From NCBI GenBank assembly GCA_020724555.1, contig DYGT01000003.1, positions 21,415 to 85,414 on the forward strand: a stretch of 64,000 bases of DNA. The letters are read 5' to 3'. The position numbers were made by a program, and so were the translations under genes. The notes beneath the pieces are model-generated. The model did no database searches. It had not been told where the DNA came from and was given only the letters and a program-made list of their open reading frames with translations. The stretch comes from Candidatus Microgenomatus sp. Its GTDB lineage: Bacteria; Patescibacteriota; Microgenomatia; UBA8517. Shown here in pieces: positions 5,599-47,840 of this stretch; positions within the stretch are counted from its first letter, which is position 1; each line of letters begins with the position of its first letter.

Positions 5599-7722
5599 TT
5601 ATTCAGAGTTTGTCCCGTTTTGGGCGGCTGCAAGTATAATCTTAAAAGGTATAATCTGAGTGGAAAGCCCAGCCTTTTGAGCTGTGATGGCGACTGTTGA
5701 GTCAGGGTAAAGGGTGGGTGTCAGGCTAAAGGTGGAGTCAGCTCCTGTGGTTGCAGTGAATGTCTTCACTTCCCCAGGGTTTTGGTTGTTGACCACAGTC
5801 AGGCTGATGAGGGAGTCGGCAAAGGCAATACCAGTGAAGATGGGAGTAAGGGTGGTTGTGGTATAGCTTGTCCTCACGCTTTCCGGCCTGAAGGAAGAAA
5901 TGATGCCTGTGTTTACTCCAGTTGCCCGGTTGATCTGAAGTGGGAACCAAAAGCCCGAGAAAAGTGGCGTACTTTCCACTGAAACAAGGGCTTGGGTGAG
6001 GGTGAGAGGAACTACATTTGTGTCAAAGTGATTGCCCCATTTGTCAACTGCCCTCACTTTCACCTCATACTCCCCCGGGGTGAATGTGGCCTGGGCTGTA
6101 AGCACCCCTTCTGAATTGGCAGAGACTACTACTCTCCCATCCTCCCCTACTAGGCTCACAGGTACTCGCTTTAAGTATTGAGTGAAATTTCCGTCTTTGC
6201 CAATATACACCTCAAAGCGGTCAAGGTTACTTTTGATGTGCTCCACATTTTTACTGGGAATGTGGAAGGAAAAAGTAGGTACCGCTCCTTCTGTGCTCAC
6301 ACTGTCCAAGGTAAATGGCCAAAAGAGGAAAGCTTCCTGGGTTTCAATTCTGGACTGGTAGGAAGTGGCTCTGAAGTGAGCAGTGAAGCCATCTCCCTCG
6401 CTCCACCGGTCGCGTGGAGCCACCCCTGCCCATGGCTCAAAGTCATGGTAAAACTCAGTAATTGTCTCGTGGTCTGAGTGCTGGCGCTTGGAAAAATTCG
6501 TGAGTGGTCCAAAGCCCTGGTTGTTGATGGAAACCTCGGGGCTGCGAAGGTCAAACTTCCCATACTCCCCCATGACAATGTTTCCACTCAGCCTCATCTT
6601 GTCCCCACTGCTTTCAGGTGGGTAGTTCACGGTAAAGCCTGGCGTGGCAGTGGCTTCATAATCTTCAAAGATGAGGATGCGGTTGTTTCCAGAGTCAACA
6701 ACGAGCAATTTATTTTGATACTCAAATACTCTACCTGCCCCGGAGATGGTATTCGCGGAAGTTGTTCCTCCGGCATTACTCAGACTCCCAGATAAATCTG
6801 TTTGACCTATGACCACGTCCGCTGATGCCCCGTTTGTAGTAGGGATAGCATTGAAAATGAGAACACGATTGTGATTGGCGTCTCCTACGAATAATTTGCT
6901 CCCGCTTGAGAAAGGGATCCGTATGTTGCCAAGAGTATTAGGAGCCGCAGGTAGATCAGTATCAGTATCAAAGTCAGCCTGACCAATTACCACATCTGCT
7001 GGAACATAGTTTCCGGTTGGAATAGAATTCCAAAGCAGGATTCGGTAAGCATTTGGATCTGCCACAAAAAGTCTGCCTGATGTGTCTATTGTGACACCCA
7101 GACCGTTTACAATGGTGTATCGCGATGCCGAAACGCTATCACAGGTTGTAAAATCCGGTTGACCCAAGACCACATCGGCTGGAGCGTAATTTGTTGTAGG
7201 AATCGAATTCCATATAAGTACTCGGTCGTGACTTGCGTCGGATACGACTAATTTTCCATGGTGTACAGCCATTCCGTAGGGTACGTACAGAGTCTTGTTA
7301 TCACACGTGGCTTCTTGACTTGTCATGGTACTATTTCCCACAACAACGTCGGCAGGTTCTCCATTTGTTGTTGGAAATTCATTCCAAATAAGCACGCGGT
7401 GGTTATATGCGTCTGCAACAAAAAGCTTATCTTGGTAAACCCAGACTGCTGTAGGATTTCTAAGCGTATCAGCATCTCTAGCTCCTCCTCCGTTAATTGA
7501 CCCTGTGTCAAAATCTGATTGGCCAAGCACGAGGTCGGCTGGAGTCCCATTAGTTGCTGGTATCTGATTCCAAATTAGAACACGGTTATTGTTATATTCG
7601 GCTACGATTAAGTGCCCTTTTTCATCTACAAAAATCCCTGAAGGGCTGTTTAAACTAGTCGATGACGTTCCTGGAGAATTCGTGGAAAAGTCTGGTTGGC
7701 CAATGACAACAGAAGCTGGCAT
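5599..7722 (-). CDS. secreted NHL-repeat (six-bladed beta-propeller) protein, currently phase-OFF. The in-frame signal-peptide leader extends upstream to about 7857 but has no in-frame start codon.
   Basis: Seven or more repeats of NxRVLIWNxIPTTNGxPADVVxGQxDF (NHL-type) followed by a C-terminal beta-rich domain. The upstream in-frame translation (HSLT)nHSHKVLIGLFFSLFIFLVLVPSKAWGYYTN-MPASVV is a signal peptide with no in-frame ATG, so the annotated ATG at 7722 would yield a leaderless cytoplasmic product. Confidence 0.7.
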   Translation of the reverse strand: MPASVVIGQPDFSTNSPGTSSTSLNSPSGIFVDEKGHLIVAEYNNNRVLIWNQIPATNGTPADLVLGQSDFDTGSINGGGARDADTLRNPTAVWVYQDKLFVADAYNHRVLIWNEFPTTNGEPADVVVGNSTMTSQEATCDNKTLYVPYGMAVHHGKLVVSDASHDRVLIWNSIPTTNYAPADVVLGQPDFTTCDSVSASRYTIVNGLGVTIDTSGRLFVADPNAYRILLWNSIPTGNYVPADVVIGQADFDTDTDLPAAPNTLGNIRIPFSSGSKLFVGDANHNRVLIFNAIPTTNGASADVVIGQTDLSGSLSNAGGTTSANTISGAGRVFEYQNKLLVVDSGNNRILIFEDYEATATPGFTVNYPPESSGDKMRLSGNIVMGEYGKFDLRSPEVSINNQGFGPLTNFSKRQHSDHETITEFYHDFEPWAGVAPRDRWSEGDGFTAHFRATSYQSRIETQEAFLFWPFTLDSVSTEGAVPTFSFHIPSKNVEHIKSNLDRFEVYIGKDGNFTQYLKRVPVSLVGEDGRVVVSANSEGVLTAQATFTPGEYEVKVRAVDKWGNHFDTNVVPLTLTQALVSVESTPLFSGFWFPLQINRATGVNTGIISSFRPESVRTSYTTTTLTPIFTGIAFADSLISLTVVNNQNPGEVKTFTATTGADSTFSLTPTLYPDSTVAITAQKAGLSTQIIPFKIILAAAQNGTNSE

Positions 7723-7805
7723 ATTGGTGTAGTATCCCCAGGCTTTGCTTGGGACAAGAACGAGGAAAATAAAAAGTGAAAAAAATAAACCTATTAAGAC
7801 TTTAT

Positions 7806-7852
7806 GTGAGTGAGTGAGTGAGTGAGTGAGTGAGTGAGTGAGTGAGTGAGTG
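7806..7852 (-). repeat. tetranucleotide SSR: (GTGA)11 on plus strand = (CACT)11 in the mRNA sense, inside the 5' leader-peptide coding region of the NHL gene
   Basis: Direct reading of 7806..7852: g(tgag)x11 tg. The coding strand reads ATGTATGCA(CTCA)n...CACATAAAG. Confidence 0.95.
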
Positions 7853-8014
7853 CATACATTATTTTAAATTCAAAAGGCAAATTATTTGATCTGATTAATC
7901 TTATTAAAAGCATAAAGCCAAAAGGTTGTCAAGATTGAGAAGTTTCTAAAATAGGGTCTATACCCAAAATATTTCAATTTACAATTTTAGAAATATTTTT
8001 GGGTTCAAAATCTC

Positions 8015-8209
8015 TTACGAGAATTGCAAATTCGAGTAAGAGGAGTTTATCTTGGTATAGAGCTCGTCCTTAAATTGGGAAAATTTTTCTTCGAGCTTTT
8101 CGTCAAGTTTCTCTTCAAGTTTTTGCTCAAGCTTTTCTTCGAGCTTTTCTTCGAGCTTGCGCTCAACAACATCACTGATTTGTTTTAAATCCCTTGATGT
8201 TAATGGCAT
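8015..8209 (-). CDS. small coiled-coil protein with (EKLE)n repeats, hypothetical
   Basis: 64 aa, KLEEKLEEKLEQKLEEKLDEKLEEK encoded by imperfect 12-bp tandem DNA repeats (8091..8175). Weak evidence for expression. Confidence 0.3.
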   Translation of the reverse strand: MPLTSRDLKQISDVVERKLEEKLEEKLEQKLEEKLDEKLEEKFSQFKDELYTKINSSYSNLQFS

Positions 8210-29631: not shown

Positions 29632-30459
29632 ATGGATATCCGCCAAAGCGATAATTACGCCAGATACCTTGAAAACACAGGCTGGGTAATTGAAAATATT
29701 AACGACGTTTATTATTTCATCCGCAAGTTTACCCCGCTCGGAAGCTTTATTAAAATCCAAAGGCCAAAAAAAATTGACCTTAATGCCATTAACAAACTGG
29801 TCAAAAAATACCGCGCCTTTCAAGTTCTAATCGAGCCGCTGGCAACTACTAACTACCAACTACTAACTACCAACTACGGTTTCAGGCCAGCAAGCCCTTA
29901 CTTGCCTTCTAAAACCTTAGAACTTGATCTCAAAAAATCCCAAATAAAGCTTTTAGAGCAGATGCGCAAGAACACCCGCTACGGCATCAAGCGCGCAGTA
30001 ACTTCTCTTAAAGCCAATCCCGATTTAGCTCTCTTTAGAACTAGCTGGAAAAGTGCGGTTGGTCTAAAAAGGTACGTGCCGTCAAGCAAAAATCTTGCCG
30101 CACTCAAAAATGCTTTTGGCAAAAACGTACTTTTTTTAATTGACCAAAATACAAATTCCGGCGCTATTTTTCTCTTAAGCGACAAAAAAGCTTATTACTA
30201 TCAAGCCTTTACGGATACCAAGGGAAGAAAAAATTTTGCCCAATATCAAATAGTCTGGCAAGGAATTTTGTGGGCGAAAAAAAATAAAGCCCGGGCGTTT
30301 GATTTTGAAGGCATTTATGACGCGCGTTTCCCTAATCCAAAATGGCTTGGATTTACCCATTTTAAGGCGGGATTTGGAGGAAGTGTGATTACCTATCCGG
30401 CAAGTTTAAAAAAATATTATTGGAAAAACTTGCTGATTAAAAAAAGCAGGGAAGTCTGA
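29632..30459 (+). CDS. second, divergent FemAB-family-like protein
   Basis: 275 aa, KNTRYGIKRAV is paralogous to the HKKTRYNIRLA segment of the upstream gene. Contains a 14-bp tandem repeat (about 2.5 copies) at 29844..29878. Confidence 0.55.
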   Translation: MDIRQSDNYARYLENTGWVIENINDVYYFIRKFTPLGSFIKIQRPKKIDLNAINKLVKKYRAFQVLIEPLATTNYQLLTTNYGFRPASPYLPSKTLELDLKKSQIKLLEQMRKNTRYGIKRAVTSLKANPDLALFRTSWKSAVGLKRYVPSSKNLAALKNAFGKNVLFLIDQNTNSGAIFLLSDKKAYYYQAFTDTKGRKNFAQYQIVWQGILWAKKNKARAFDFEGIYDARFPNPKWLGFTHFKAGFGGSVITYPASLKKYYWKNLLIKKSREV

Positions 30460-38810: not shown

Positions 38811-38826
38811 GGTTGTATTATATACA

Positions 38827-38939
38827 AAAATTGCTTTCCCCAAATCATAGAAATCATCCGCCGCGACACTTCTCCGCCTTTGTACAATATCACCGAACAC
38901 CTAGCTTTCAGACTCTTTGGCGTCAGCGAAATTACCATC
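38827..38939 (+). pseudogene. orphan 5' fragment of a GT-C glycosyltransferase gene: 113-bp near-perfect direct-repeat copy A of 41264..41375
   Basis: Encodes PQIIEIIRRDTSPPLYNITEHLAFRLFGVSEITI, identical to residues about 30-63 of the intact GT-C protein at 41177..42535. A single-C insertion lies after position 38929. Confidence 0.75.
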
Positions 38940-38995
38940 CCGCGGGCTTTACGCCATTATGCACCAATTATTAATCTGGCGCGGGTTAAGAGAAG

Positions 38996-41086
38996 CTAAA
39001 ACGGATACCCTGAAACAAGCATATAGTAACCACCCTGTTTGGTAACCACGGCCACGGTTTTATTCACCATGTCAAGAACTGAGTTGGGAAGGACCTTCCA
39101 CACTTCACCATCTTGGGAATATGCAAGCTTAAGGTTACCCTCTGGAAGGTTGGGGTCTAGTTTAATGGGATCATACTTAATGGCCAATAAGTATGGTGTA
39201 GCAATAACCTCAGGCATGATTTTGGCGTCATTAAAAAATGACTTGTACCAAGCGTTGTAAATGCCGCTTGCCTGCCAATATGCCCCACTTACCCGTCTTG
39301 TTCCTGTCTGGGGGGTATGGGAGACGTCAAGGTATACATCCCACAAGAATGTCGCAGGCGGGGCAAAAGAAATTACATCATTTTTGACAGTGAATCCTGA
39401 GTGTGTGGCCAAAAGATCAGGCTTTTTGGGGGTAGGAGCCGGAGCACCCGGACCAGGGATGCTTCCCCCAAAGTTAGGGCCAAACTCGGAAGTGCTGCCA
39501 TTTTTGTTGGTGGCAAGGGCGGTGAAAGTGCTTAAGCTTCCTTTACTGTCCCCGGAAACCGTTACCTCCATGCTCCACATGCGCTCGGAAGTAGTCATTG
39601 TCCCTAAAGATTCAAGACACCCTCCATAGCCTGAGGAGTGATTTGAGGATTTACACACCTCAATGGTAAATGGCGCCTCAGCTAAATTCCCCTCCAGCCA
39701 TCCCCAGATTTTGTATTTTCCATTTCCCAGATATTCCGCCCCTTGGATTTCCGGGTAGTTCATAAGGTCGTTTGGACCGGTGTCAGTATCCCCAGGGTCG
39801 TTAGGTGTTACCGTATCGCGATCGTCCCCAGCCGTCAATAAAGCGATATCGAGATTTGCGTTTCCGAAAACCCTGTTTTCTCTAAAGGTAATGCCGGATG
39901 ACTGATTAAAATCGATGCTAATTCCATTGCCATTGTTATGGGCTACCACATTTTTTCGAATGAGAACATTTGATGAATCAGCGTCTCGAACGACTAAGCC
40001 AGCCCGGATAAATATACCGCTGAGTGCATCGAAATCAGGGTTTGTACCGATATAATTTCCTTGAACTGTAGTCTCTGAAACTTTCATCAGCCGGACCAAC
40101 CCTCGTTCTTCGGTCGTTATACAGGCAAAAATGTTTGCCTCTTCACTATCGGATACGCCATCGAAATTTGTGCCTATTTGATGCCCAGTACCATTATATA
40201 AGTAAAGGTGATTTCTATATCTATCTCCTCCAGCACATTGTTTTCCAGTCTTATCAACGCCGACGTAGTTTCCAGCAAAGACAAACTCAGAACTCGGTGG
40301 CGCCCCAGTAAACAGCTCGCTAACTAAAAATGTTCCTTTATTTCCAGCATTGTAGTTTGATCCCATGATCAAATTGCGCTCGCCAATATCATCGTTCCCA
40401 TCCCCATTGGTTCCGAAAGTATTTCGGTGTGAACCATTATGAAACAGAAAACTTGCATAATTACTTGAAGTTGAGCCGCTAATGTCACTACCGAAAAAAT
40501 TCCCGTCTATCCGATTGTCATTTGAAGAGTTAAAGAAAAACGTGGCTCTACCAGGATATGCTGATCGAATCGCCAATCCACTTATTCGGTTTTTATCACC
40601 TGTGAAGTTCATCCCATCGACGTTTGCATTAACGTAGAGAGCGATTGTCAATTTGGTATTTAGCGTCTCGCCGAAAGCTGCGGTGTTTCTGGATGCACCT
40701 GTTTGGGAATAGCCGTTTATGAAAACGCCTTCCTCATCCGAAAGTGCAAGTGTGCTGGTACTTTCAATTTCCCAATAAGCATGTACGTCACCGGAGGCCG
40801 GAACATAACCAGCGTCGGTATCTGGAATATCAAATTCAATGGTGTCGTGGCCGGCGTTGGCGTTGGCGGCGGCGATGGCTTCTCTGAGGGAACAGTCGGC
40901 GTCACAGACACCATCGTTGGTGTCTTCCGTTTTGGTGACCGTATAGGTTGCGGCGCGAACCAATGAATGATTATTAATAACTAATGGATAAAAAAACAAA
41001 AAAGCCAGACTCAAAAATAGACCGCCTAAGAAACCTATTAAGAGTTTATGTGAGTGAGTGAGTGAGTGGGTGGGTGAGCATTGCAT
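38996..41086 (-). CDS. secreted parallel beta-helix (pectate-lyase-like PbH1 repeat) protein with SSR-containing signal peptide, in-frame (phase-ON)
   Basis: MQCSPTHSLTHSHKLLIGFLGGLFLSLAFLFFYP leader is paralogous to the NHL gene leader. The body has repeated NxxxGNxxxxxxGxxI beta-helix rungs (NRIDGNFFG, ISIDFNQSSGITFRENRVFGN). Confidence 0.7.
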   Translation of the reverse strand: MQCSPTHSLTHSHKLLIGFLGGLFLSLAFLFFYPLVINNHSLVRAATYTVTKTEDTNDGVCDADCSLREAIAAANANAGHDTIEFDIPDTDAGYVPASGDVHAYWEIESTSTLALSDEEGVFINGYSQTGASRNTAAFGETLNTKLTIALYVNANVDGMNFTGDKNRISGLAIRSAYPGRATFFFNSSNDNRIDGNFFGSDISGSTSSNYASFLFHNGSHRNTFGTNGDGNDDIGERNLIMGSNYNAGNKGTFLVSELFTGAPPSSEFVFAGNYVGVDKTGKQCAGGDRYRNHLYLYNGTGHQIGTNFDGVSDSEEANIFACITTEERGLVRLMKVSETTVQGNYIGTNPDFDALSGIFIRAGLVVRDADSSNVLIRKNVVAHNNGNGISIDFNQSSGITFRENRVFGNANLDIALLTAGDDRDTVTPNDPGDTDTGPNDLMNYPEIQGAEYLGNGKYKIWGWLEGNLAEAPFTIEVCKSSNHSSGYGGCLESLGTMTTSERMWSMEVTVSGDSKGSLSTFTALATNKNGSTSEFGPNFGGSIPGPGAPAPTPKKPDLLATHSGFTVKNDVISFAPPATFLWDVYLDVSHTPQTGTRRVSGAYWQASGIYNAWYKSFFNDAKIMPEVIATPYLLAIKYDPIKLDPNLPEGNLKLAYSQDGEVWKVLPNSVLDMVNKTVAVVTKQGGYYMLVSGYPF
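41050..41078 (-). repeat. short, interrupted (GTGA)4-(GTGG)2-GTGA tract in the leader-peptide codons of the beta-helix gene
   Basis: gtgagtgagtgagtgagtgggtgggtgag, encodes the THSLTHS leader and is in frame with ATG 41086. Confidence 0.9.
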
Positions 41087-41176
41087 CTTAATTCATAATA
41101 TTTATTATTTTTCGACTTGTAAAGTCTTATTTTTATGCTTAAAACTTAAGTATCCCAAATTGCATTCCCAAGCGTT

Positions 41177-42535
41177 TTGCCGCTATATTTAAATATGAAC
41201 CAGTTTACAGCTCCTTTGTGGGGAGATGAGGCATTTTCCGCCATTTTGTCCATGAAATCTATCCCCCAAATCATAGAAATCATCCGCCGCGACACTTCTC
41301 CGCCTTTGTACAATATCACCGAACACCTAGCTTTCAGACTCTTTGGCGTCAGCGAAATTACCATCCGCGGGCTTTCTTTTTTTTATTATCTTTTAACCAT
41401 TGTTTTTGTCTTTTTAATCGCCAAATTAATCTGGGATAAAAAAACCGCCATTTTAGCTTCACTTTTAACCTTTTTTAACCCCTTTTTCTTTATTTATGCT
41501 TTTGAAGGAAGGATGTACGCGATCATGGCTTTGGGGGTAGCAGGCTCCATGTATTTTTTCCTAAAATTATTATTTGCTGCAAAAAAAACCAATAAAGCCC
41601 CAAAAGGAACCATCTTGGGCTACATTCTTGCAACCTCCTGGGCTTTGTACAGCCACCACTTTGCCATATTTATTGTCTTTATTCAGGGATTTTGGTGGCT
41701 CTTTGAATTAATCACAAAAAATTTCAAATTTATAAAATGGCAATTAATCGCGTTTCTTGGCACCGGAATTTTATATATACCCTGGCTTTTGCCTTTATAT
41801 GAGCAAACACAAATGGTAGGTGGGGGATTTTGGTTGGGTAAACCTACTTTAACAGATTTAAGAACATTAATTTATGAATACATTGCCACAGGCATCAAGC
41901 ACCCTTTGGCAGACTATGCCTTATACCTTAGTTTAACCGCACTACTCATCAGGCGCTGGGATAAAAATATCAAAATCAGCCTCATCCTCGCAACTTGGTT
42001 TTTAGGCCCAATCATTATGACATTTACAATCTCCCAATTTTTCCAGCCGGTTTTTTACAACAGATACCTTTTGTACACCATCCCGGCTTGGGGGCTTCTT
42101 ATTGCCGGCGCCAGAAGAAAAGTAATTTCTTTTATAATTATCGCCGGCATTTTGAGTCTTTTTATCCGCATTGATTGGCATTATTTTAATAATCCCACAA
42201 AACTTCCTTTTAACCAGCTTGCTCAGTTTGTTATTGAAAGTAAAAGAAACGACGATACTTTAATAAACTGGTCTGCCGGTTCACACCACTTATGGGAAAG
42301 CAAATTCTACGGGATTCCCGCCCCGATTTATGTAAAGGAAGGTGGGGGAGAGCTTCCTTTTTTTGTGGGTACGGCACTTATGGAAGAAACGGATGTAATA
42401 AAAACTTTGCCTGATGAAGGCCGAATTGGCGTTATCACGAGTGGCCCAGTTGAGGAAGTTGCCATTACTGGTTATACTGAAATTGAGAGCAAATCTTTTG
42501 GCAATCTTAAATTTATATGGCTAGAAAAAAATTAA
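41177..42535 (+). CDS. GT-C superfamily glycosyltransferase (PMT/ArnT-like) with N-terminal DE motif
   Basis: 452 aa, about 11 TM. WGDEAFSAILS catalytic DE motif in the first extracytoplasmic loop. Contains repeat copy B (41264..41375). Confidence 0.7.
   Translation: MPLYLNMNQFTAPLWGDEAFSAILSMKSIPQIIEIIRRDTSPPLYNITEHLAFRLFGVSEITIRGLSFFYYLLTIVFVFLIAKLIWDKKTAILASLLTFFNPFFFIYAFEGRMYAIMALGVAGSMYFFLKLLFAAKKTNKAPKGTILGYILATSWALYSHHFAIFIVFIQGFWWLFELITKNFKFIKWQLIAFLGTGILYIPWLLPLYEQTQMVGGGFWLGKPTLTDLRTLIYEYIATGIKHPLADYALYLSLTALLIRRWDKNIKISLILATWFLGPIIMTFTISQFFQPVFYNRYLLYTIPAWGLLIAGARRKVISFIIIAGILSLFIRIDWHYFNNPTKLPFNQLAQFVIESKRNDDTLINWSAGSHHLWESKFYGIPAPIYVKEGGGELPFFVGTALMEETDVIKTLPDEGRIGVITSGPVEEVAITGYTEIESKSFGNLKFIWLEKN
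41264..41375 (+). repeat. direct-repeat copy B (112 bp) inside the GT-C gene, identical to 38827..38939 except for 1 nt
   Basis: Base-by-base comparison of the two segments. Confidence 0.95.
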
Positions 42536-47768: not shown

Positions 47769-47840
47769 GACCGGGTAGCCAAGTGGTAAGGCAAGGGTCT
47801 GCAAAACCCTCACTCGTGGGTTCGATTCCCATCCCGGTCT
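47769..47840 (+). tRNA. tRNA-Cys (anticodon GCA), 72 nt, CCA not encoded
   Basis: Manual fold: acceptor GACCGGG/CCCGGTC, D-arm GCC-AAGTGGTAA-GGC, anticodon arm AGGGT-CTGCAAA-ACCCT (U33-GCA-A37), variable loop CACTC, T-arm GTGGG-TTCGATT-CCCAT, discriminator T. Confidence 0.9.

What the first reader, a model, noticed from the sequence alone, without database searches (positions are those of the whole stretch)
41041..41090. Paralogous SSR-bearing leader peptide on a second, unrelated surface protein (beta-helix), here locked in frame
The 696-aa parallel beta-helix protein starts MQCSPTHSLTHSHKLLIGFLGGLFL. This is the same leader (tetranucleotide-encoded HSLT repeat, HSHK, hydrophobic core) as the NHL gene 33 kb away, while the mature domains are unrelated. 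Here the tract is short and interrupted (GTGA x4, GTGG x2, GTGA), which should strongly reduce slippage, and it is in frame with the ATG. The pattern points to a portable 5' cassette (promoter-proximal leader plus SSR) that has been attached to different secreted proteins, with one copy expanded into a switch and the other decayed into a fixed ON state.
Basis: seen in the sequence. Interest (0 to 1): 0.6.

Follow-up and report, generated by a model that had tools for sequence, protein, structure and literature searches.

The report
Shared repeat-bearing leader on two surface genes
Two unrelated secreted-protein genes in this small uncultured bacterium start with the same short leader containing a 4-base repeat, a classical on/off slippage switch: one copy is long and currently off, and the copy in question is short, interrupted and on. 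The mechanism is ordinary; it is notable only for the host lineage and the shared leader.

Summary
The 696-aa CSLREA/beta-helix gene (38996..41086, minus strand) begins ATGCAATGC-(TCAC)(CCAC)2(TCAC)4-ATAAACTCTTAATAGGTTT, which reads in frame as MQCSPTHSLTHSHKLLIG. The NHL gene 33 kb away begins ATGTATGCAC-(TCAC)11-ATAAAGTCTTAATAGGTTT and is out of frame. The two share the repeat and 21 of the 22 bases after it, far beyond chance. Their mature proteins are unrelated.

This is a standard tetranucleotide slippage switch placed in the N-terminal part of a signal peptide. The nearest described case is the AAGC tract in Neisseria autA/autB. New detail: both genes carry two ATGs in different frames, so two of three repeat-number classes are ON.

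The "portable cassette" idea is only partly supported.
- For it: the closest beta-helix homolog has the same leader with a fully decayed tract. The closest NHL homologs carry a different, conserved promoter and leader.
- Against it: the two promoters are not detectably alike, and no third member was found.
- Untested: no repeat-length polymorphism data could be obtained.

(TCAC)n tracts placed before signal-peptide-like ORFs occur in many other bacteria. Verdict: a new member of a known kind, of moderate interest.

The parts
38996..41086 (-). CDS of the 696-aa secreted CSLREA / right-handed beta-helix protein, read from the first ATG
   Evidence: ORF list. Pfam PF13229 at 33.9 bits. TIGR04214 CSLREA_Nterm at 39.7 bits against a cut-off of 25, residues 48-75. 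Homologs are named CSLREA domain-containing proteins.
41050..41077 (-). Interrupted tetranucleotide tract. Coding strand reads TCAC CCAC CCAC (TCAC)4, encoding SPTHSLTHS within the n-region of the signal peptide.
   Evidence: Sequence. TRF reports period 4, 7.2 copies, 92% matches. The perfect run is 4 units. The sequence is identical in L001, L137 and L138.
41079..41086 (-). Two start codons in different frames (ATGCAATG): ATG1 at 41086-41084, in frame now, and ATG2 at 41081-41079
   Evidence: Frame simulation: ATG1 is ON with 1, 4 or 7 perfect units, ATG2 is ON with 3 or 6, and 2, 5 or 8 units are OFF. The same ATGCRATGC is present in the homolog L002.
41031..41052 (-). 22-nt stretch after the tract (CACATAAACTCTTAATAGGTTT = H K L L I G F), 21/22 identical to the NHL copy
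40952..41086 (-). Predicted signal peptide, residues 1-45, with inferred cleavage at ..SLVRA|ATYTV
   Evidence: Inferred from alignment with homologs. These all begin their mature part at A|ATYTVTKT after a signal peptide of about 25-30 aa. No signal-peptide predictor was available.
41012..41014 (-). Alternative TTG start (codon 25) used by the NCBI and JGI annotations. It yields a 672-aa product and hides the leader.
   Evidence: P0001 and P0286 start at SLAFLFF. The upstream sequence is TAGGCGG.
41095..41123 (-). Promoter-like site TTTACA-17-TATTAT, ending 9 nt before ATG1. This would give a very short or absent 5' leader on the mRNA.
   Evidence: Consensus scan only; 1 site found against 1.0 expected, so weak evidence.
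7806..7852 (-). Paralogous long tract, CAC(TCAC)11, in the leader of the NHL gene
   Evidence: The length is the same in the JGI assembly. A contig from another sample ends inside the tract (L134).
7853..7859 (-). Two start codons of the NHL gene (ATGTATG), at 7859 and 7855, both out of frame at 11 units
   Evidence: ATG1 is ON at 9, 12 or 15 units, ATG2 is ON at 7, 10 or 13, and 8, 11 or 14 are OFF with stops within 5 codons of the tract.
7787..7808 (-). 22-nt stretch after the NHL tract (CACATAAAGTCTTAATAGGTTT = H K V L I G L)
5599..7806 (-). NHL-repeat surface protein reading frame from HKVLIG... to the stop. The only in-frame canonical start after the tract is the ATG at 7722, beyond the signal peptide.
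38817..38940 (+). Left copy of a 124-nt direct repeat that brackets the beta-helix gene. It is a remnant of the 5' part of the neighbouring glycosyltransferase gene.
   Evidence: 92% identity. Translations.
41243..41366 (+). Right copy of the 124-nt direct repeat, inside the 5' coding part of the PMT_2-type glycosyltransferase gene 41195..42535

Best explanation
The 41041-41090 feature is the 5' end of a secreted CSLREA/beta-helix surface-protein gene. A tetranucleotide repeat (TCAC)n lies between the start codon(s) and the hydrophobic core of the signal peptide.

How it works: this is the classical translational phase-variation design. Slipped-strand mispairing adds or removes 4-nt units, moving the signal peptide and everything after it in or out of frame with the upstream ATG. 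Out-of-frame readings stop within 5 codons of the tract. Two ATGs in different frames precede the tract, so two of the three repeat-number classes give full-length secreted protein and one gives none.

The two copies: in the beta-helix gene the tract has two T>C interruptions, leaving only four perfect units. It is in frame with the first ATG, so the gene is ON and should switch rarely (shown: sequence and frame; inferred: low rate). The NHL gene 33 kb away has the same leader with 11 perfect units, in the single OFF class, and is the active switch.

Origin of the shared leader: it comprises the ATG pair, the tract and the next ~22 nt, but not the promoter. It is most likely native to the beta-helix lineage and was copied onto the NHL gene, or homogenised with it, by intragenomic recombination. 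The direction is inferred.
For: - Sequence, frame and tract composition.
- Frame simulation with two ATGs.
- Stop codons after the tract in both OFF frames (ACA TAA; ATA AAG TCT TAA).
- (GTGA)n has TGA in every frame, and both tracts are oriented TCAC with respect to their genes (seen directly in the sequence).
- The NHL frame has no canonical start between the tract and the mature domain, so its signal peptide can only be translated through the tract.
- Homologs show that the mature proteins begin right after a signal peptide at ATYTVTKT and YYTNMPASVV.
- 21/22 identity after the tract, with 0 of 2000 shuffles reaching the score.
- The closest beta-helix homolog (58% identity) has the leader MLTCSHKLIIG. 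Its DNA is ATGCGATGC..TCACACAAACTTATAATTGG, a decayed three-unit tract.
- The closest NHL homologs (62-71%) have a different leader and promoter, conserved among themselves, while their mature start is as divergent from each other as from the window gene.
- The same architecture (ATG, (TCAC)n, signal-peptide-like ORF) recurs in unrelated bacteria.
- Published analogues and thresholds: AAGC repeats within signal-sequence DNA of autA/autB (PMC5118866); a cut-off of at least 5 tetranucleotide units (PMC6321876); about 1e-4 per generation for long tetranucleotide tracts (PMC2651432).
Against: - No tract-length variation was observed. The JGI, NCBI and Logan assemblies of what is probably the same sample give identical tracts. 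Logan contigs from other samples break at the tract, as expected for k=31, so they carry no length information.
- The NCBI and JGI pipelines start the beta-helix gene at a TTG 24 codons downstream. If that is the true start, the tract is in the 5' UTR and its frame is irrelevant for this gene.
- No signal-peptide predictor or expression data were available.
- The direction of leader transfer rests on one close homolog for the beta-helix gene and three for the NHL gene.
- Mismatch-repair status and slippage rates in this lineage are unknown.
Confidence: 0.65

Rival explanations
1. A mobile 5' cassette in the first reader's full sense: promoter, leader and SSR move as a unit and have been attached to many secreted-protein genes of this genome, forming a family of switchable genes.
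For: Two unrelated genes share the leader. The NHL 5' module is discordant with its homologs. The beta-helix gene is bracketed by 124-nt direct repeats, which hints at rearrangement at this locus.
Against: The upstream 100 nt are not significantly alike. There are only two copies in the 64 kb plus 8 kb examined. Exact-pattern scans gave no hits in GTDB genomes and only chance hits in JGI contigs. The leader-peptide search returned only microsatellite junk ORFs. Caveat: neither DNA collection contains the two metagenomes known to carry the leader, and the rest of the genome could not be read.
Confidence: 0.2
2. The tract is untranslated in the beta-helix gene. The true start is the TTG at codon 25, the repeat lies in the 5' UTR or promoter-proximal region, and any effect is on transcription or mRNA stability, or there is none.
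For: The NCBI and JGI gene calls use the TTG start. An AGGCGG-like motif lies upstream of it. 5'-UTR SSR switches are known (PMC12721329, listed).
Against: A TTG start would give a signal peptide with no charged n-region. The open frame and the HK[L/V][L/I]IG peptide are conserved in the NHL gene and in the 58%-identical homolog, whose own ATG lies upstream of this motif. Most genes in this window lack Shine-Dalgarno motifs, so the AGGCGG carries little weight. The NHL gene has no alternative start, so its tract must be coding. Both tracts are in the only stop-free orientation.
Confidence: 0.12
3. The two leaders are alike because of repeated gene conversion seeded by the identical repeat tracts, not a one-off graft of a cassette. 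On this view the CCAC interruptions are scars of such recombination rather than slow decay.
For: Identity is confined to the tract and its immediate flanks, as expected for a short conversion tract. Power et al. proposed that interrupted tetranucleotide SSRs arise from recombination between paralogous hgp loci (PMC2651432).
Against: Conversion needs both genes to have had a TCAC tract beforehand, and the NHL homologs show no such tract. Two identical T>C changes in adjacent units are also easily explained as one point mutation followed by duplication of the mutated unit by slippage.
Confidence: 0.2
4. Chance resemblance or assembly artefact.
For: None beyond the fact that SSRs are hard to assemble.
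Against: The flank matches at 21/22 with 0 of 2000 shuffles reaching the score. Independent assemblies give identical sequence. A contig from another sample carries the same ATG plus tract.
Confidence: 0.01

Closest known systems
[quoted passage not shown]
   Same: [quoted passage not shown] Two genes in one genome carry the same repeat. ON/OFF switching is by slipped-strand frameshift. Most alleles are found OFF. Shorter tracts are expected to switch less.
   Different: AutA and AutB are paralogous autotransporters, whereas here the mature domains are unrelated. The repeat unit differs, the host is a Patescibacteria-like MAG rather than a host-adapted pathogen, and no switching has been demonstrated here.
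Haemophilus influenzae tetranucleotide contingency loci (lic1/lic2/lic3 CAAT, hgp CCAA) (PMC2651432; dual-ATG behaviour of lic1 recalled from Weiser et al. 1989, not checked here)
   Same: The same tetranucleotide unit sits at the 5' end of several genes, including unrelated ones. Alternative ATGs in different frames give more than one ON class. Interrupted tracts occur in paralogous loci.
   Different: In H. influenzae only the repeat unit is shared between unrelated genes. Here the start-codon context and 22 nt after the tract are shared as well, and population polymorphism is undocumented.
Neisseria opa genes (CTCTT pentamer repeats in the leader-peptide coding region); from general knowledge, not checked here
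   Same: The repeat is translated as part of the signal peptide. A multigene family shares the same leader and SSR, with recombination between copies.
   Different: Opa proteins are homologous to one another. The unit is a pentamer that encodes the hydrophobic core rather than the n-region.
(TCAC)n-leader genes in other bacteria found here (Orbaceae bacterium ac157xtp L007/L015/L050, Nannocystaceae L026, and others)
   Same: The same repeat unit, in the same orientation, lies 6-25 nt after an ATG and is followed by an ORF with a signal-peptide or lipoprotein-like start. In Orbaceae, three loci share the same ATGAAAAAAG context.
   Different: There is no sequence relationship with the leader described here (one search found no match to its flank). 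These loci are unannotated and untested.

Membership tests
SSR-mediated translational phase-variable (contingency) gene | Tandem repeat whose unit is not a multiple of 3, located inside the reading frame downstream of the start codon | tested here: met
   A 4-nt unit lies between ATG 41086 and the HKLLIG... signal-peptide core. The NHL copy has the same layout.
SSR-mediated translational phase-variable (contingency) gene | Perfect tract long enough for elevated slippage (at least 5 tetranucleotide units in PhasomeIt, PMC6321876) | tested here: not met
   The beta-helix tract has 4 perfect units (7 counting two interrupted ones). The NHL tract, with 11 perfect units, meets the criterion.
SSR-mediated translational phase-variable (contingency) gene | Unit gain or loss leads to premature termination in the OFF frames and a full-length product in the ON frames | tested here: met
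   Simulation over 1-8 units (beta-helix) and 7-15 units (NHL). OFF products are 7-25 aa; ON products are 692-700 aa and 746-758 aa.
SSR-mediated translational phase-variable (contingency) gene | Tract length differs between strains or within a population | tested here: inconclusive
   The length is identical in the JGI, NCBI and Logan assemblies of what is probably one sample. Contigs from other samples stop inside or beside the tract.
SSR-mediated translational phase-variable (contingency) gene | Reversible, high-frequency ON/OFF switching of the product | not testable with these tools
   Needs cultures, single-cell or deep read data; the organism is uncultured.
CSLREA domain-containing right-handed beta-helix proteins (TIGR04214 / PF13229) | CSLREA N-terminal motif directly after the signal peptide, plus a parallel beta-helix region | tested here: met
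   TIGR04214 scores 39.7 bits (cut-off 25) at residues 48-75. PF13229 scores 33.9 bits (cut-off 25.9). 570 homologs were found, many named CSLREA domain-containing.
   21/22 nt after the tract, and a similar double-ATG context before it.
   The local score for the upstream regions is below the shuffle mean. It ranks 5-7 of 42 against other upstream regions in the window.
   No hits. Power is limited: the rest of the genome and both source metagenomes were outside the searchable DNA collections.
   NHL homologs share their own promoter (97-98%) and leader (77-84%), absent from the window gene, while the mature start is 58-70% identical in all pairs. The beta-helix homolog L002 shares the window's leader.

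The most novel reading that the evidence does not exclude
In this Patescibacteria-like lineage, a short translated module (double ATG, TCAC tract, HK[L/V]LIG) acts as a transferable 'plug-in' phase-variation leader. Recombination grafts it onto otherwise unrelated surface-protein genes. Copies then run through a life cycle from expanded switch (NHL, 11 units), through interrupted tract (beta-helix, 4+3 units), to fully decayed fixed-ON leader (homolog L002). This would make stochastic surface variation a regular part of the biology of these episymbiont-like bacteria.
Probability: 0.2. Interest if true: 0.6.

Novelty: new member of a known kind. Interest (0 to 1): 0.38.

Why it matters
Repeat-driven phase variation is textbook biology for host-adapted pathogens. 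I found no paper describing it in Candidate Phyla Radiation / Patescibacteria: no paper in the library held both 'phase-variable' and 'candidate phyla radiation', and none of the hits listed for the other searches described it.

If the NHL tract really varies in the population, these ultra-small bacteria would be using bet-hedging on surface proteins that probably mediate attachment. That bears on how they interact with hosts and phages.

There is also a practical point. The NCBI and JGI annotations start the beta-helix gene downstream of the tract and start the NHL gene at an internal ATG. Both the leader and the switch are therefore invisible in the public protein records.

Tried and rejected
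1. Exact-pattern scan for the leader flank (TCACTCACATAAANTNNTNATAGG) gave 0 hits in GTDB genomes and 0 in JGI metagenome contigs. A looser pattern built from the three known leaders gave 4 hits, all chance matches inside other genes or non-ORFs. These collections contain neither 3300029893 nor 3300009868, the two metagenomes known to carry the leader, so the negatives are weak.

2. A profile search with the three leader peptides against 5.8 billion proteins returned only short junk ORFs from (SLTH)n microsatellites, with E of 0.16 or worse.

3. Tract-length polymorphism was sought through exact-protein look-ups of the neighbouring genes. The species is present in at least four other samples. 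However, Logan contigs (k=31) end in or next to the 47-nt tract, and no other sample yielded a contig carrying the beta-helix leader.

4. Promoter homology was rejected.

5. A scan for (TCAC)6 in all GTDB genomes tested whether the motif is a CPR speciality. It is not: only 1 of the 80 loci listed (of at least 120 matches) is from a CPR genome, and there the tract is not in a leader.

6. Taxonomic naming through cluster look-ups failed, because no member carries a name. The 'Patescibacteria-like' label rests only on the source names of homologs.

7. An Rfam scan found nothing near either locus, only one tRNA at 47769-47840.

8. No solved structure is detectably related by sequence to the beta-helix protein.
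Full report
**What is there.** On the minus strand the ORF 38996..41086 (696 aa) begins ATG CAA TGC TCA CCC ACC CAC TCA CTC ACT CAC TCA CAT AAA CTC TTA ATA GGT. This translates as MQCSPTHSLTHSHKLLIG. TRF reports 7.2 copies at 92% matches, and the longest perfect run is four units.

The protein carries the NCBIfam CSLREA_Nterm domain at residues 48-75 (39.7 bits, cut-off 25) and a Pfam right-handed beta-helix region. It has hundreds of homologs, many named 'CSLREA domain-containing protein' and many from Patescibacteria/CPR bins. In those homologs a signal peptide of about 25-30 residues is followed by A|ATYTVTKT.DTNDG.CD.DCSLREA. I therefore place the signal-peptide cleavage site of this protein after residue 45 (..SLVRA|ATYTV). 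This is an inference, because no predictor was available.

**The second copy.** A perfect CAC(TCAC)11 tract lies at 7806-7852 (minus strand), 33.2 kb away. It is preceded by ATGTATG and followed by ATAAAGTCTTAATAGGTTT. That frame reads HKVLIGLFFSLFIFLVLVPSKAWG|YYTNMPASVV and runs into the NHL-repeat protein 5599..7722.
- The repeat motif occurs only at these two places, with 13 overlapping matches against 0.04 expected.
- The 22 nt after the tract are 21/22 identical and occur nowhere else in the window. None of 2000 dinucleotide shuffles reached the observed score.
- The mature proteins are unrelated. The best BLASTP segment is the leader itself, at E = 0.098.
- An independent Logan assembly (L001) and the JGI assembly carry the identical beta-helix leader. 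A contig from a different sample (L134, SRR8731049) carries the same ATGTATGCAC plus tract.

**How it reads.** I simulated unit gain and loss. Both genes have two ATGs in different frames just upstream of the tract: ATGCAATG at 41086/41081 and ATGTATG at 7859/7855.
- Beta-helix gene: 1, 4 or 7 perfect units are ON through ATG1. Three or 6 units are ON through ATG2. Two, 5 or 8 units are OFF.
- NHL gene: 9, 12 or 15 units are ON through ATG1. Seven, 10 or 13 units are ON through ATG2. Eight, 11 or 14 units are OFF.
- The assembled NHL allele (11 units) is in the single OFF class.
- OFF readings end within five codons of the tract (ACA TAA, or ATA AAG TCT TAA).
- (GTGA)n has TGA in every frame, so only the TCAC orientation can be coding, and both tracts have it.
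- In the NHL frame there is no ATG, GTG or TTG between the tract and the ATG at 7722, which lies beyond the signal peptide. A secreted NHL protein can only be made by translating through the tract.

All this is the anatomy of a translational slipped-strand switch in the n-region of a signal peptide. There, insertions of (SLTH)n are harmless.

**Is the beta-helix copy 'locked ON'?** It is ON. Its perfect run of four units is below the 5-unit cut-off used to call tetranucleotide phase-variable loci (PMC6321876). Long tetranucleotide tracts mutate at about 1e-4 per generation (PMC2651432), and shorter tracts are expected to switch less (PMC5118866). So 'rarely switching' is a fair inference, while 'locked' is too strong.

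The closest homolog (P0002, 58% identity, JGI 3300009868) shows the end state. Its leader is MLTCSHKLIIG, encoded by ATGCGATGCTTACTTGCTCACACAAACTTATAATTGG. That is ATGC(TCAC)3ATAAA with four substitutions, in frame with the second ATG. The double ATG, the tract position and the HK-L-I-G motif therefore predate the split of these two beta-helix genes. The three leaders form a series: 11 perfect units (NHL), 4 perfect plus 3 imperfect (this gene), and 0 perfect (L002).

**Is it a portable cassette?** The evidence points both ways.

For:
- The three closest NHL homologs (62-71% identity; L003-L005) have a different leader, MQKKAWLPIKII...ASA|YYT, and their own TTGACA promoter.
- Among themselves their promoters are 97-98% identical and their leaders 77-84% identical.
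- The first 96 columns of the mature part are only 58-60% identical among them, and 60-70% identical to the window gene.
- The window's NHL gene is thus an ordinary member by its mature domain but has a foreign 5' end, whose only relative is the beta-helix leader in the same genome.

Against:
- The shared DNA stops at the start codons. The 100 nt upstream of the two genes are no more alike than either is to 42 other upstream regions in the window, and the local score is below the shuffle mean. The promoter is therefore not part of the unit.
- No third member was found in the window, in 8 kb more of the same contig, in GTDB species genomes, in JGI contigs, or by a leader-peptide profile search.
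- These negatives are weak. The rest of the genome could not be read, and the DNA collections contain neither metagenome known to carry the leader.

My reading is that a short translated leader native to the beta-helix lineage was copied onto, or homogenised with, the NHL gene by intragenomic recombination. Gene conversion seeded by the repeats is a live alternative. Power et al. link interrupted tetranucleotide tracts to recombination between paralogous loci.

**The alternative start.** The NCBI and JGI annotations start the beta-helix gene at a TTG 24 codons downstream (P0001, P0286), which would leave the tract untranslated. I consider this unlikely, for four reasons:
- The resulting signal peptide would lack a charged n-region.
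- The open frame and the HK motif are conserved in the homolog, whose own ATG lies upstream of the motif.
- Most genes in this window have no Shine-Dalgarno motif, so the AGGCGG before the TTG means little.
- A promoter-like TTTACA-17-TATTAT ends 9 nt before ATG1, suggesting a very short mRNA leader (consensus match only).

**Population data.** The same species, with identical NusA and neighbouring proteins, is present in SRR5011275, SRR5011273, SRR8731049, SRR8925729 and JGI 3300027914. Contigs there end at the NHL stop codon on one side and inside or upstream of the tract on the other. This fits a strain-variable NHL gene and a tract too long for k=31 assembly. It gives no tract lengths. The refutation criterion 'no polymorphism' could therefore not be tested.

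**Comparison with known systems.**
- The nearest described case is autA/autB of N. meningitidis. AAGC repeats lie immediately after the start codon, within the signal-sequence DNA of two surface proteins, and most alleles are OFF (PMC5118866).
- The H. influenzae lic and hgp loci share a tetranucleotide unit among several genes (PMC2651432).
- A scan of GTDB genomes for (TCAC)6 found at least 120 loci in many phyla. A fair number have an ATG 6-25 nt upstream and a signal-peptide or lipoprotein-like ORF after the tract. These include three loci with a common ATGAAAAAAG context in an Orbaceae genome.
- The architecture is therefore common and not specific to this lineage. Only one listed hit was from a CPR genome.
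- I found no paper describing SSR phase variation in CPR/Patescibacteria.

**Verdict.** The feature is real and correctly observed. It is a new member of a well-known kind: a tetranucleotide contingency leader, here in degenerate ON form. Three modest points of interest remain:
- The host lineage.
- The sharing of start-codon context, tract and flank between unrelated genes.
- The dual-ATG, two-of-three-frames-ON logic.

Noticed in passing
window 38817-38940 and 41243-41366: A 124-nt direct repeat (92% identical) brackets the whole beta-helix gene together with its leader and promoter. The right copy is inside the 5' coding part of the PMT_2-type glycosyltransferase gene. The left copy is a non-functional fragment of the same sequence. 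Logan contigs break at these repeats (L001 is exactly the 2.4-kb interval). This suggests the beta-helix gene arrived by, or was involved in, a recombination or duplication event at this site.
   Followed up: partly
window 5599-8022; loci L128-L131, L132-L134: In at least four other samples the flanking core genes (NusA, DnaJ, the 201-aa ORF) are identical at the protein level. Contigs nevertheless stop at the NHL stop codon and upstream of the NHL promoter, and L134 has a different sequence from about 7950 onward (a 97-aa ORF instead of 64 aa). The NHL gene and its upstream region look like a strain-variable island between conserved housekeeping genes.
   Followed up: partly
L004 1412-5436, L005 1219-2811: The closest NHL homologs sit directly downstream of relaxase (Replic_Relax), TrwB/TraG coupling protein and DUF2958 genes, that is, on a conjugative or mobilisable element. 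Their promoters are 97-98% identical while the start of the mature NHL domain is only about 60% identical. That is a constant 5' module in front of a fast-diverging surface protein.
   Followed up: partly
window, upstream 20 nt of 42 ORFs: Few genes have a Shine-Dalgarno-like motif. Many have TATAAT-like boxes only 5-12 nt before the start codon (for example nusA, and the ORFs 28604.., 48739.., 54989.., 55772..). This suggests widespread leaderless or very short-leader mRNAs in this organism.
   Followed up: no
L007, L015, L050 (Orbaceae bacterium ac157xtp, CP133583.1); also L026, L094, L108, L119: In other phyla, (TCAC)10-23 tracts lie 6-25 nt after an ATG and before signal-peptide or lipoprotein-like ORFs. 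The Orbaceae genome has at least three such loci with the same ATGAAAAAAG start and related products (ASKTLKS...). These are probable unannotated phase-variable gene families.
   Followed up: partly
window 38996-41014 and 5599-7722 versus public records P0001, P0286, P0287: The public NCBI and JGI gene calls start the beta-helix gene at an internal TTG (672 aa) and the NHL gene at an internal ATG (707 aa, no signal peptide). The SSR leader is therefore absent from the deposited protein sequences.
   Followed up: yes
window 29843-29877: A 14-nt unit (CAACTACTAACTAC) is repeated 2.5 times at 100% identity inside ORF 29632..30459 (+). The unit length is not a multiple of 3, so a change in copy number would shift the frame.
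   Followed up: no
window 8085-8166: 12-nt and 36-nt in-frame repeats encode an (EEKL)n coiled-coil-like stretch in the 64-aa ORF 8015..8209 (-), which lies between the NHL promoter region and the 201-aa ORF. The C-terminal end of this small ORF differs in another sample (97 aa in L134).
   Followed up: no
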